Positions 24,362 to 24,784 of a stretch of 32,000 nucleotides of DNA are shown here, piece after piece. The stretch's first letter is position 1, and each line of letters starts with the position of its first letter. Origin of the DNA: Synechococcus sp. A15-24 (lineage in GTDB: Bacteria; Cyanobacteriota; Cyanobacteriia; PCC-6307; Cyanobiaceae); contig NZ_CP047960.1 in NCBI RefSeq assembly GCF_014280195.1, positions 390,001 to 422,000 on the forward strand. Reading direction: 5' to 3'. The notes under the pieces were generated by a model. It was not told where the DNA came from, ran no database searches, and saw nothing but the letters and a program-made list of their open reading frames with translations. The position numbers and the translations under genes were made by a program.

Positions 24362-24538
24362 TTAGGCAGCGGTTTGATTTTCGGAACTTGCAAATTCCAT
24401 CTGCAATATCTCTATTTTTCGCAAAATAGGTCCACAATGCTCGCAGGCGTGAGGATCTGGAGGTAGAAATACCTCTCGATAGAGCATCGATCGATAGATC
24501 TCGATCTGCTCAATTAGGAAATTGCGATAGGAACTCAC
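24362..24538 (-). CDS. CxxC mini-protein P2, copy 2 (unlisted ORF)
   Basis: (V/M)SSYRNFLIEQIEIYRSMLYREVFLPPDPHACEHCGPILRKIEILQMEFASSENQTAA. The GTG start lies 9 nt after the P1 stop. Against copy 1, the 32 codons EQIEIY..ILRK show 8 synonymous and 1 non-synonymous difference. Confidence 0.65.
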   Translation of the reverse strand: MSSYRNFLIEQIEIYRSMLYREVFLPPDPHACEHCGPILRKIEILQMEFASSENQTAA

Positions 24539-24547
24539 ATCACACTC

Positions 24548-24784
24548 CTAATCGTACTGCACGTAATGCCGAGAAGGTCTGGCAAAACGCAGTTCACGTT
24601 CCTCCATCTGACGCTGAATACTCATCAGACGGTGATAAGCCGACTTACAACGTGGGCATTCACAAGGAATGCCACATTCTTCAAGCTGACGAAAGGCAAT
24701 CATTGCTTGCTTATGCTCTTTAAGCGAATATTCAGCCACCGCAAGTAAGGCGGAGAACAAACGAATAATGCACAAAAGCTGCAA
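24548..24784 (-). CDS. Cys-rich mini-protein P1 (CGIPCECPRC)
   Basis: 78-aa listed ORF; the real start may be the internal GTG before AEYSLKEHK. Its architecture is helix-CxC..C-helix, like P2. It is absent from module copy 1. Confidence 0.5.
   Translation of the reverse strand: MQLLCIIRLFSALLAVAEYSLKEHKQAMIAFRQLEECGIPCECPRCKSAYHRLMSIQRQMEERELRFARPSRHYVQYD

What the first reader, a model, noticed from the sequence alone, without database searches (positions are those of the whole stretch)
24362..24784. Unannotated CxxC mini-protein operon (P1-P2) under purifying selection
- P2 (55-58 aa) is below the ORF-track cutoff. In the track it is masked by out-of-frame ORFs 20897..21091 and 24231..24437.
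- Between the two copies, the segment EQIEIYRSMLYRE.FLPPDPHACEHCGPILRK has 8 synonymous and 1 non-synonymous change, a clear coding signature.
- P1 (CGIPCECPRC) has the same helix-Cys-helix layout and ends 9 nt before the P2 start.
- A perfect 7-bp inverted repeat lies upstream.
- I recognise no family. Candidates are small zinc-binding regulators, antitoxin-like proteins or recombination-directionality factors.
Basis: seen in the sequence. Interest (0 to 1): 0.65.

Follow-up and report, generated by a model that had tools for sequence, protein, structure and literature searches.

The report
Tiny cysteine-hairpin protein gene pair
Two adjacent genes for very small (63 and 58 residue) cysteine-bearing helical-hairpin proteins of unknown function are real and conserved in marine Synechococcus genomic islands; they sit behind a strongly conserved upstream DNA box and occupy the supposedly gene-free space upstream of the Cyano-2 RNA.

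Summary
P2 occurs twice (24362-24538 and 21016-21183, minus strand). Across 29 distinct P2 and 9 distinct P1 sequences from genomes and marine metagenomes, dN/dS is 0.24 and 0.18 in the proposed frames and about 0.9-2 in the other frames.

Both are genuine protein genes. They are translationally coupled (TAG stop overlapping a GGAG-like site) and are predicted to be helix-loop-helix hairpins with Cys/His at the tip. No Pfam, NCBIfam, PADLOC, PHROGs, PDB or phage relative was found.

New findings:
- A 46-nt DNA box lies at a fixed distance (about 108-109 nt where measured) upstream of the first gene, even where synonymous sites are saturated.
- The cassette is modular: box-[P1]-P2, sometimes with two P2 paralogues.
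- It lies in tmRNA-linked or integrase-linked islands.
- In one clade it sits 240-340 nt upstream of the Cyano-2 sRNA.

Corrections:
- P2-B and a truncated P1 are already annotated as hypothetical proteins.
- The P2 CxxC is not conserved across the family, whereas P1's Cys4 cluster is invariant.
- A few lineages carry stop codons and are pseudogenes.

Function remains inferred, not shown.

The parts
24362..24538 (-). P2 copy B. 58 aa, GTG start, TAA stop included. Predicted helix (2-19), loop with PPDPHACEHC, helix (35-57).
   Evidence: ORF. Homologues. dN/dS 0.24. AlphaFold2 pLDDT 84.8. The exact sequence is present in the NCBI set.
24548..24739 (-). P1. 63 aa from GTG 24739, TAG stop included. 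Helix, invariant CG[IV]PCECPRC tip, helix, conserved RPSR-Y--YD tail. The maximal ORF runs to 24784. The database call of 51 aa starts at ATG 24703.
   Evidence: Homologues. A GTG/ATG start is kept at this position in all clades, and codons 2-12 have pN/pS 0.37. Overall dN/dS 0.18. AlphaFold2 pLDDT 69.
24539..24550 (-). P1-P2 junction: TAG stop overlapping the GGAG ribosome-binding-like site, 9 nt spacer. Indicates translational coupling.
   Evidence: TAGGAG/TAGGGG/TAGAGG is conserved in 12 of the 13 P1-P2 junctions printed. The divergent L006 has TAGAACATG with a 3-nt spacer.
24805..24850 (-). Conserved upstream box, copy B: CTGTGTGACAAAGCACACAGTTTGAATTGTTGAATTCAGGACATTG. It contains the 7-bp inverted repeat (24831-24837 / 24844-24850), which reads TGTGA-N6-ACACA or GTG-N8-CAC. 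Its GTGTGAC core starts 109 nt before the P1 start.
   Evidence: Only two copies occur in the window against 0 expected by chance.
21016..21183 (-). P2 copy A. 55 aa, TTG start, no P1 upstream. This copy is the unannotated one.
   Evidence: The start codon alternates TTG/GTG/ATG at the same position in homologues. The sequence is not in the protein collection.
21248..21293 (-). Conserved upstream box, copy A. Its GTGTGAC core starts 108 nt before the P2-A start.
   Evidence: (repeat D6).
23820..24023 (-). Cyano-2 RNA (RF01702) copy B, 338 nt downstream of P2-B on the same strand. It has its own promoter-like TTGCCG-17-CATATT at 24059-24087.
   Evidence: Rfam 167.4 bits against a gathering score of 40. 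Promoter alignment.
20548..20745 (-). Cyano-2 RNA copy A, 270 nt downstream of P2-A. Promoter-like TTGCCA-17-CATATT at 20782-20810.
   Evidence: Rfam 194.7 bits. Promoter scan.
24879..25031 (-). 50-aa small ORF with the 'SAQRKRYLR' motif, immediately upstream of box B. A relative at 21596-21811 lies upstream of box A.
   Evidence: Also found upstream of the box in L005, L007, L008, L010, L012 and L018, further upstream in L013/L014, and downstream of P2 in L021/L029.
9003..9290 (+). tmRNA gene marking the start of the low-GC genomic island that carries the cassettes.
   Evidence: In L044 a three-gene version of the cassette lies about 350 nt from the same tmRNA.

Best explanation
Shown:
- P1 (63 aa) and P2 (58 or 55 aa) are genuine protein-coding genes, and P1 and P2-B are translationally coupled.
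- They belong to two orphan small-protein families of marine Synechococcus.
- They form a modular cassette, box-[P1]-P2(-P2'), carried in the flexible genomic-island and integrative-element gene pool. In the window this is the island next to tmRNA. Elsewhere the cassette lies beside an inward-facing tyrosine integrase.

Inferred:
- Each protein folds as an antiparallel two-helix hairpin whose tip carries metal or redox ligands. P1 has an invariant Cys4 cluster, most likely a structural Zn site resembling a zinc knuckle or zinc hook. P2 has C-x-H-C in this clade.
- The hairpins probably act by pairing, as homo- or hetero-dimers forming a four-helix bundle. They would then act as small protein-binding or regulatory adaptors for the mobile element or island, not as enzymes.
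- Expression is driven or controlled from the 46-nt box. The box looks like an activator-dependent promoter or operator: a CRP/NtcA-family-like GTR-N8-YAC palindrome followed 21 nt later by a -10-like GACATT.
- The neighbouring Cyano-2 sRNA has its own promoter. It is a frequent companion of the cassette, not an obligatory one.
For: Coding:
- P2 dN/dS is 0.24 in frame against 0.86 and 1.38 out of frame, over 29 distinct sequences, with no indels and the stop in register.
- P1 dN/dS is 0.18 against 1.5 and 2.1.
- Synteny of P1 followed by P2 is kept even where P2 is only 33% identical (L006) and where synonymous sites are saturated (clade V).
- The P2-only start codon switches among TTG, GTG and ATG at one position. 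The junction motif TAGGAG is conserved.

Fold:
- AlphaFold2 gives helix-loop-helix for P2 (pLDDT 84.8) and for P1 (pLDDT 69).
- P1's four Cys are invariant.

Cis element:
- The box is present in 24 distinct versions. Its core is nearly invariant and the spacing to the first gene is fixed.
- A perfect GTA-N8-TAC is present in clade II and in L037.
- No RNA covariation was found, and no conserved upstream ORF. This favours a DNA-level site.

Context:
- tmRNA lies at the island edge, next to a primase/helicase-like AAA_25 gene.
- In clade III the order is a 148-aa upstream ORF, then box, P2, two small ORFs, facing a convergent tyrosine integrase that itself varies from 59 to 99% identity.
- L044 has P1-P2'-P2 about 350 nt from tmRNA.
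- tmRNA and an inward-facing integrase are tycheposon hallmarks (bioRxiv 10.1101/2020.12.28.424599).
Against: - There is no expression, proteomic or metal-content evidence.
- No sigma-70-type promoter was found by the consensus scan upstream of P1-P2. The -10-like hexamer lacks the first T, and the window's palindrome is GTG-N8-CAC rather than GTA-N8-TAC.
- The stretch between the palindrome and ACATTG is itself highly conserved. A simple class-II promoter does not explain this.
- The second Cys of P2, and in some members all Cys and His, are lost in distant clades. Metal binding therefore cannot be the family's core function for P2.
- Hetero-dimerisation is not required. P2 occurs alone. P1 stays nucleotide-identical in four contigs whose P2 carries a TGA plus 4 non-synonymous and 1 synonymous change. 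L006 combines an 80%-identical P1 with a 33%-identical P2.
- Foldseek finds only generic helical hairpins (E > 2).
- Neighbouring genes are almost all orphans.
Confidence: 0.5

Rival explanations
1. Toxin-antitoxin-like addiction module of the island. One hairpin protein is toxic and the other is a labile neutraliser, with autoregulation at the palindromic box.
For: - Two tiny coupled genes sit in mobile islands behind a palindrome-containing box.
- Several copies occur per island, with frequent decay.
- Orphan P2 copies exist.
- The P2 C-terminus always ends ...Q-x-[AV]-A, like an ssrA-type degron.
Against: - No similarity to any toxin or antitoxin family, and no match in PADLOC.
- Neither protein has an RHH, HTH or AbrB DNA-binding domain.
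- Either partner can be lost. P2 occurs alone in many loci, and P1 stays intact where P2 is a pseudogene.
- Some cassettes have two P2 paralogues.
- Charge complementarity is inconsistent.
Confidence: 0.13
2. Excision or recombination-directionality control. P2 (with or without P1) modulates the tyrosine integrase of the tycheposon-like element.
For: In clade III, P2 lies two small genes away from an inward-facing tyrosine integrase, after a 148-aa upstream ORF. The arrangement is kept while the integrase diverges to 59% identity. Excisionases are hallmark small genes of such elements.
Against: - There is no integrase within the 32-kb window. The window's clade-I cassettes lie in island 'cargo' next to Cyano-2.
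- P2 is acidic (pI 4.4-5.4) and is a helical hairpin, not a basic winged helix.
- No Pfam excisionase or HTH hit.
Confidence: 0.08
3. Protein partner of the Cyano-2 sRNA. The hairpin proteins bind, stabilise or are regulated by the RNA encoded just downstream.
For: Cyano-2 follows P2 on the same strand at 240-340 nt in 13 of 14 testable clade-I loci. Weinberg et al. noted that the 1 kb upstream of Cyano-2 usually has no predicted gene (PMC2864571 supplement).
Against: - Cyano-2 has its own conserved promoter-like element.
- Clades II, III, V and VI have no Cyano-2 downstream on the same strand in the sequence held. In clade IV it is absent or on the opposite strand.
- No complementarity between Cyano-2 and the P1-P2 leader beyond shuffled controls (z = -1.2 and -0.1).
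Confidence: 0.07
4. P2 is a redox protein whose first Cys can be selenocysteine (U-x-x-C). The in-frame TGA alleles would then be read through.
For: TGA replaces exactly the first Cys codon of C-E-H-C in five contigs from different metagenome projects. An otherwise identical Cys allele (P0003) exists.
Against: - Within the TGA lineage P2 has accumulated 4 non-synonymous and 1 synonymous change while P1 is nucleotide-identical. This indicates relaxed constraint.
- Other stops are TAA (L022) and a TGA replacing Trp in P1 (L034-36).
- The only hairpin downstream of the TGA is an all-A/T stem that is also present in the Cys alleles.
Confidence: 0.02
5. The conservation is not protein-coding. The P2 segment would be a DNA or RNA element, for example part of a Cyano-2 precursor or promoter region, and the ORFs would be incidental.
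For: DNA identity between the two copies continues 61 nt past the P2 stop (50/61). An A/T palindrome lies inside the ORF (24412-24429).
Against: - The frame-specific excess of synonymous change is present in both genes and at all divergence levels.
- The ORF, its stop position and its start position are kept in 40+ loci, including ones without Cyano-2.
- No Rfam family matches there, even at E <= 1.
Confidence: 0.02

Closest known systems
Zinc-hook / small CPxC zinc-finger hairpin proteins (Rad50 hook apex CPxC; archaeal CPxCG micro-proteins). Recalled from general knowledge and used only as a mechanistic analogue.
   Same: An antiparallel helical hairpin with a C-P-x-C (P1: CPRC) or C-x-x-C (P2: CEHC) at the apex, placed at the N-cap of the second helix. 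The size is below 70 aa. The motif is invariant in P1.
   Different: No sequence or fold match. P1 has four Cys within 10 residues (C-x3-C-x-C-x2-C) rather than two separated CxxC knuckles. The P2 motif is lost in distant members. Metal binding is untested.
FmdB-family zinc ribbon (NCBIfam TIGR02605, CxxC_CxxC_SSSS)
   Same: This is the only named family that touches P1. It is small, Cys-rich and a putative regulator.
   Different: The score is 16.8 bits against a curated cut-off of 31.3. P1 is predicted helical, not a ribbon. P1 is therefore not a member.
Type II toxin-antitoxin operons
   Same: Two small coupled genes, an upstream palindrome, an island location and multiple decaying copies.
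   Different: No homologous domains. The pairing is not obligatory. No DNA-binding fold.
Excisionase / small regulator genes of tycheposon-like integrative elements (Hackl et al., bioRxiv 10.1101/2020.12.28.424599)
   Same: Small genes beside an inward-facing tyrosine integrase (clade III) and in tmRNA-linked islands.
   Different: P2 is acidic and helical-hairpin with no Xis or HTH signature. The window's copies are far from any integrase. Tycheposons were defined in Prochlorococcus.
Cyano-2 RNA motif (Rfam RF01702; Weinberg et al. 2010)
   Same: It is a physical neighbour. Both window copies of P2 lie in the 'gene-free' 1 kb upstream of a Cyano-2 RNA.
   Different: Cyano-2 is a separate, structured non-coding RNA with its own promoter-like element. 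The association holds only in one P2 clade.
NblA (about 60-aa helix-loop-helix phycobilisome-degradation adaptor of cyanobacteria). A lead from memory only.
   Same: Size, predicted two-helix hairpin and cyanobacterial host. NblA promoters are NtcA-dependent in model strains.
   Different: No Pfam NblA hit, even at E <= 1. No sequence motifs are shared. The relationship was not tested further.

Membership tests
Any curated protein family (Pfam-A, NCBIfam, PHROGs, PADLOC, PDB sequences) | Score above the family's curated threshold, or a significant E-value | tested here: not met
   P2 has no hit at E <= 1. The best hits for P1 are below cut-off (TIGR02605, 16.8 against 31.3 bits). PDB profile searches give E >= 0.066.
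Protein-coding gene under purifying selection | Frame-specific excess of synonymous change; ORF, start and stop conserved among homologues | tested here: met
   P2 dN/dS 0.24 against 0.86 and 1.38. P1 dN/dS 0.18 against 1.5 and 2.1. The stop is in register in 36 loci. Exceptions are lineage-restricted stops.
Zinc-hook / zinc-knuckle hairpin | CxxC at the apex of an antiparallel helical hairpin, conserved across the family | tested here: inconclusive
   The geometry is predicted for both proteins. The motif is invariant in P1. It is not conserved in P2, where distant members have C-x-H-S/N or no Cys.
Zinc-hook / zinc-knuckle hairpin | Stoichiometric Zn binding and Zn-dependent dimerisation | not testable with these tools
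   Needs ICP-MS or native mass spectrometry of purified protein.
Type II toxin-antitoxin | Homology of either partner to a known toxin or antitoxin superfamily | tested here: not met
Type II toxin-antitoxin | Obligate co-occurrence of the two partners | tested here: not met
   P2 occurs alone in window copy A, L001-3, L011, L013-15 and L019-30. P1 is intact with a pseudogenised P2 in L008/10/12/18.
Type II toxin-antitoxin | Growth arrest by one partner, rescued by the other | not testable with these tools
   Needs an expression experiment.
Excisionase / recombination directionality factor | Encoded next to the cognate integrase | tested here: inconclusive
   True for clade III (L002, L025-28, L030). 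Not true for the window or for the other clades in the sequence held.
Excisionase / recombination directionality factor | Small basic DNA-binding (winged-helix / HTH) protein | tested here: not met
   P2 has pI 4.4-5.4 and is a two-helix hairpin. No Xis or HTH family hit.
Bacterial selenoprotein | In-frame TGA aligned with Cys in homologues | tested here: met
   TGA falls at the first Cys codon in L008, L009, L010, L012 and L018. The Cys allele is P0003.
Bacterial selenoprotein | Purifying selection maintained around and after the TGA | tested here: not met
   There are 4 non-synonymous and 1 synonymous change within the TGA lineage, while P1 is unchanged.
Bacterial selenoprotein | SelA/SelB/tRNA-Sec present in the host | not testable with these tools
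   Only short contigs carry the allele. [quoted passage not shown]
NtcA/CRP-family activator-dependent (class II) promoter | GTA-N8-TAC (or TGTGA-N6-TCACA) palindrome about 22 nt upstream of a TAN3T -10 box | tested here: inconclusive
   A perfect GTA-N8-TAC occurs in clade II and L037. The window has GTG-N8-CAC, which can also be read as TGTGA-N6-ACACA. A near-invariant GACATT lies 21 nt downstream but lacks the first T. The transcription start is unknown.
RiPP / bacteriocin precursor | Conserved leader plus hypervariable core, with a modifying enzyme or transporter nearby | tested here: not met
   Conservation runs along the whole length up to the C-terminus. Neighbours are orphan small ORFs with no LanM, cyclodehydratase or ABC genes.
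Cyano-2 RNA (RF01702), for the neighbouring elements and not for P1/P2 | Covariance-model score above the gathering threshold of 40 bits | tested here: met
   194.7 and 167.4 bits with full-length matches.

The most novel reading that the evidence does not exclude
The box-[P1]-P2 cassette together with the adjacent Cyano-2 RNA would be a previously unrecognised self-contained module of tycheposon-like marine integrative elements. Zinc-hook-like micro-proteins, produced from an activator-gated promoter, would assemble with each other, and possibly with the structured RNA. The assembly would control the element's maintenance, excision or interference with phage. This would be a new protein-RNA regulatory system specific to ocean picocyanobacteria.
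Probability: 0.1. Interest if true: 0.75.

Novelty: new variant of a known kind. Interest (0 to 1): 0.45.

Why it matters
- Marine Synechococcus islands are full of tiny ORFs that annotation pipelines call inconsistently. Here P1 is called too short, P2-A is not called at all, and many metagenomic calls are frame-extended 75-82-aa artefacts that erase P1.
- The work delivers two well-supported micro-protein families and the correct gene models.
- It also delivers a 46-nt cis element that is more conserved than the genes it precedes. That element is a ready handle for finding the regulator, and perhaps the regulon, of island cassettes.
- It explains a 2010 observation that Cyano-2 RNAs sit behind about 1 kb of apparently gene-free DNA.
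- If the proteins prove to be Zn-dependent adaptors of integrative elements, they would be a first functional foothold in the 'dark' small-gene content of tmRNA/tRNA-linked islands. These islands drive niche adaptation in ocean picocyanobacteria.

Tried and rejected
- P1 and P2 as paralogues: the hhalign probability is 4%.
- A structured 5' leader RNA between the box and the start codon: RNAalifold gives -8.4 kcal/mol with a positive covariation term and only one compensatory pair.
- A conserved upstream ORF across the box: the frame is closed by TGA in clade V, and only the box part is conserved in the alternative frame.
- Base-pairing between Cyano-2 and the P1-P2 or P2 leader: not above shuffled controls (one search timed out).
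- Phage origin: no hits by blastn or tblastn against 50,697 phage records. No hits to IMG/VR by peptide patterns for P2 and P1 or by the box DNA pattern. could not run.
- Defence-system or phage protein families: none in PADLOC or PHROGs.
- Structural neighbours: Foldseek against PDB returns only generic helical hairpins with E > 2.
- The Acidimicrobiales 'relative' L004: this is a chance motif match inside a 194-aa C-x2-C...C-x2-C zinc-ribbon protein.
- A box-like direct repeat flanking the cassette: significant only in L008, not in the window.
- Sigma-70 promoter or intrinsic terminator for P1-P2: none found by the consensus scan.
- Consistent charge complementarity of P1 and P2: not present.
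Full report
**1. What is in the window**

On the minus strand, the ORF listing gives three ORFs: a 58-aa ORF at 24362-24538 (P2 copy B, GTG start), a 55-aa ORF at 21016-21183 (P2 copy A, TTG start) and a 78-aa maximal ORF at 24548-24784 (P1). The P1 stop (TAG, 24548-24550) is separated by 9 nt from the P2-B start. A perfect 7-bp inverted repeat, CTGTGTG/CACACAG, lies at 24831-24837 and 24844-24850.

The two P2 copies sit in a 211-nt direct repeat (20955-21165 and 24301-24511, 87% identity). A second 61-nt repeat (21248-21308 and 24805-24865) lies upstream of each copy. 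The extra 211 nt between these repeats in copy B corresponds to P1, which copy A lacks.

**2. Is it more than chance?**

The 32-codon segment has 8 synonymous and 1 non-synonymous difference (binomial p = 4e-5). Over the 49-codon shared core there are 9 synonymous and 7 non-synonymous differences, giving pN/pS 0.21. The other two frames give 1.07 and 1.08. Synonymous divergence between the copies is 0.29, so they are not a recent duplication.

**3. Relatives elsewhere**

- P2 has 11 close protein clusters and P1 has 10. Both include adjacent 'hypothetical proteins' SynA1528_01713 and SynA1528_01714 of Synechococcus sp. A15-28.
- DNA scans returned three Synechococcus single-cell genomes and 30 marine metagenome contigs. 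Further loci came from contig look-ups.
- An exhaustive profile search of 1.84 billion representatives found only 32 proteins, nearly all of 41-99 aa. The few longer ones (132-421 aa) include repeat or zinc-finger proteins that I set aside as spurious. A profile search of the 5.8-billion set found 382 clusters, almost all from marine metagenomes.
- In 36 loci the 49-codon P2 core aligns without a single indel and ends at the same stop codon.
- Over 29 distinct P2 sequences, dN/dS is 0.24 in the P2 frame against 0.86 and 1.38 in the other frames.
- Over 9 distinct P1 sequences, dN/dS is 0.18 against 1.5 and 2.1.
- P1 followed directly by P2 is kept in clades whose synonymous sites are saturated. 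It is also kept in L006, where P2 is only 33% identical.

These results establish both as protein-coding genes.

**4. Gene models**

The P1 start is a GTG (ATG in L006 and in P0018/P0019) at the position of 24739 in every clade. Codons 2-12 have pN/pS 0.37, against 0.86 and 1.55 in the other frames. P1 is therefore 63 aa. The 51-aa version in the public protein set (from ATG 24703) is too short, and the 78-aa maximal ORF is too long.

The exact 58-aa P2-B is in the NCBI set for the 2,305,373-bp source genome. P2-A is not in the collection. 'Unannotated' therefore applies only to copy A.

Many metagenomic gene calls of 75-109 aa are upstream extensions of the P2 frame that overlap the 3' part of P1.

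The P1 stop is always TAG, embedded in TAGGAG, TAGGGG or TAGAGG, 3-13 nt before the P2 start. This is a classical translational-coupling junction. In P2-only cassettes the start codon alternates TTG, GTG and ATG at one fixed position.

**5.

- Five contigs from several projects carry TGA at the first Cys codon of P2.
- One contig carries TAA three codons earlier.
- Three contigs carry TGA in place of a Trp codon in P1.

The five TGA contigs are one lineage. Their P1 genes are nucleotide-identical. Their P2 sequences differ by 4 non-synonymous and 1 synonymous change. An otherwise identical Cys allele exists (P0003).

I read these as decaying copies. [quoted passage not shown]

**6. The proteins**

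AlphaFold2 predicts P2 as helix 2-19, loop 20-34 (containing ...FLPPDPHACEHC) and helix 35-57, with pLDDT 84.8. It predicts P1 as helix, a six-residue tip (GIPCEC), helix and a disordered tail, with pLDDT 69.

P1's C-x3-C-x-C-x2-C cluster and its C-terminal RPSR-Y--YD are invariant or nearly so in all clades.

In P2 the first Cys and the His are mostly kept. The second Cys is replaced by S, N or Y in distant members, and some members have no Cys at all. The family signature is instead the two helices, EEIEILRLMLYR[DE]EFLP and LLxKIxxLxxEL, plus a C-terminus of ...[DN]Q-x-[AVST]-A.

P1 and P2 are not detectably homologous. No Pfam, NCBIfam, PADLOC, PHROGs or PDB relative exists, and Foldseek returns only generic hairpins.

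**7. The conserved box**

A 46-nt block precedes the cassette in essentially every locus. In copy B it reads CTGTGTGACAAAGCACACAGTTTGAATTGTTGAATTCAGGACATTG (24805-24850). Copy A is at 21248-21293.

- Over 24 distinct versions the consensus is GTGTgaCaaagaAcACaGTTTgTgTTGTTGAgTtCcGgACATTG.
- The box core starts exactly 109 nt before the P1 start in every P1-P2 locus where I measured it, including clade V, and 107-109 nt before the P2 start in the P2-only cassettes measured.
- It occurs only twice in the window, with 0 matches expected by chance.
- It is not a known RNA family, shows no covariation-supported structure, and is not a conserved upstream ORF.
This reads TGTGA-N6-ACACA or GTG-N8-CAC in the window, and a perfect GTA-N8-TAC in clade II and L037. 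A near-invariant GACATT follows 21 nt later.

This layout resembles an NtcA/CRP-type activator-dependent promoter. The match is imperfect and the transcription start is unknown, so I treat it as a hypothesis.

**8. Context**

The window is core Synechococcus DNA (SMC, RlmL; GC 0.60-0.68) up to the tmRNA gene at 9003-9290. After that comes a lower-GC island that opens with an AAA_25 primase/helicase-like gene.

Both P2 copies are followed on the same strand by a full-length Cyano-2 RNA (RF01702), 338 nt downstream of copy B and 270 nt downstream of copy A. Each Cyano-2 has its own conserved TTGCC[GA]-17-CATATT promoter-like element.

The same P2-then-Cyano-2 order holds in 13 of 14 testable clade-I loci. 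In the other clades Cyano-2 is absent from the sequence held or lies on the opposite strand. [quoted passage not shown] The P1/P2 cassette fills that gap in this clade.

Other arrangements:
- Clade II: P1-P2 followed by a 248-aa orphan protein.
- Clade III: a 148-aa upstream ORF, then box, P2 and two small ORFs, facing a convergent tyrosine integrase. The integrase itself varies from 59 to 99% identity.
- Clade IV: P2 followed by a relative of the window's 50-aa 'SAQRKRYLR' ORF.
- L044 and L043: two tandem P2 paralogues, one of them Cys-less, with or without P1. In L044 the cassette lies about 350 nt from the tmRNA gene.

tmRNA hot-spots and an inward-facing integrase are hallmarks of tycheposon-type elements (bioRxiv 10.1101/2020.12.28.424599). 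No phage or IMG/VR relative was found.

**9. Interpretation**

Shown:
- Two real, coupled micro-protein genes.
- A modular cassette with an exceptionally conserved cis element.
- Residence in the mobile or flexible gene pool.
- Frequent but non-obligatory adjacency to Cyano-2.

Inferred:
- A hairpin fold.
- A structural metal site in P1, and in some P2 members.
- Action through hairpin pairing as small adaptors or regulators of the element.
- The box acting as an activator-dependent promoter or operator.

A strict toxin-antitoxin pair is disfavoured because either partner can be lost. A role as a recombination directionality factor is suggested only by the clade-III context and is contradicted by P2's acidic hairpin nature. 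The non-coding and selenoprotein readings are essentially excluded.

**10. Verdict**

The finding is a correct and careful observation of a genuine feature. It is moderately interesting. It yields new orphan micro-protein families, corrected gene models, a strongly conserved regulatory box and a link to Cyano-2. There is not yet any demonstrated function or evidence of a new mechanism.

Noticed in passing
window 20548-20745 (-) and 23820-24023 (-); promoter-like 20782-20810 and 24059-24087: Two full-length Cyano-2 RNAs (RF01702). Each has a conserved TTGCC[GA]-17-CATATT promoter-like element and each lies downstream of a P2 gene. They are part of two tandem mosaic modules spanning about 19.8-25.1 kb.
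   Followed up: partly
window 23321-23382 (+), terminator-like hairpin 23379-23405 (+): A Cyano-1 RNA (RF01701, 42.2 bits against a gathering score of 41) lies on the opposite strand between the two modules and ends in a strong terminator-like hairpin. The same Cyano-2 / Cyano-1 / P1-P2 order recurs in L008, L012 and L018.
   Followed up: no
window 9003-9290 (+), 9942-11126 (+): The tmRNA gene (tag ANNIVRFSRQAAPVAA) marks a drop in GC from about 0.63 to 0.40-0.55, which is the start of an island. The first large island gene is an AAA_25 / primase-helicase-like ATPase. No integrase is present within the window.
   Followed up: partly
window 24879-25031 (-) and 21596-21811 (-): Small ORFs of 50 and 71 aa share a 'SAQRKR[YF]LR' motif, and one lies just upstream of each box. 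Relatives are upstream of the box in several clade-I loci and downstream of P2 in L021 and L029. This is another shuffled micro-ORF family.
   Followed up: partly
L044 3494-4216 (tmRNA at 4563-4877, RlmL at 4934-6040); L043 3678-4165: L044 carries a three-gene version: box, P1, a Cys-less P2 paralogue and a second P2 paralogue, about 350 nt from the 3' end of the same tmRNA on a 746-kb contig. L043 has the two P2 paralogues without P1.
   Followed up: partly
P2 C-terminus, window 24365-24379 and 21019-21033; all loci: P2 always ends ...[DN]Q-x-[AVST]-A-COOH with the stop in register. This is reminiscent of an ssrA-type C-terminal degron (the local tmRNA tag ends PVAA) and could make P2 a short-lived protein.
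   Followed up: no
window 24412-24429 and 21067-21082 (-): An A/T-only palindrome lies inside the P2 coding region: CTATTTT-GCGA-AAAATAG in copy B and TATTTT-ACGC-AAAATA in copy A, at codons P-I-L-R-K-I-E. The synonymous differences fall in the loop. In L008 it is a perfect 20-nt palindrome.
   Followed up: no
L008 2412-2585, L009, L010, L012, L018: A TGA allele at the first Cys codon of P2 coexists in ocean metagenomes with an otherwise identical Cys allele (P0003). P1 in the same contigs is unchanged.
   Followed up: yes
window 22788-23036 (+), 19966-20076 (+), 20457-20493 (+), 20118-20462 (+): There is a DUF3104 gene plus two stray copies of its 3' end (repeats D2 and D4, encoding ...ADLVTHI-PRV*). 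One stray copy sits directly after the DUF3303 gene. The Cyano-2 / DUF3303 / DUF3104-fragment order recurs in L005, L008 and L009.
   Followed up: no
window 15459-15598 (+): Two tandem copies of a 70-nt unit at 76% identity. Not examined.
   Followed up: no
L006 4033-4093 (-), 6894-6953 (+); L025 5125-5183 (+): Glutamine-II riboswitch aptamers (RF01704) lie within a few kb of P1/P2 cassettes in two metagenomic loci. This shows that nitrogen-sensing elements share the same islands.
   Followed up: no
L008 2586-2615 compared with 2100-2125: The sequence just after the P2 stop repeats the 5' half of the upstream box with a 4-nt insertion (score 28 against a shuffle maximum of 21). The similarity is not significant in the window's copies.
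   Followed up: partly
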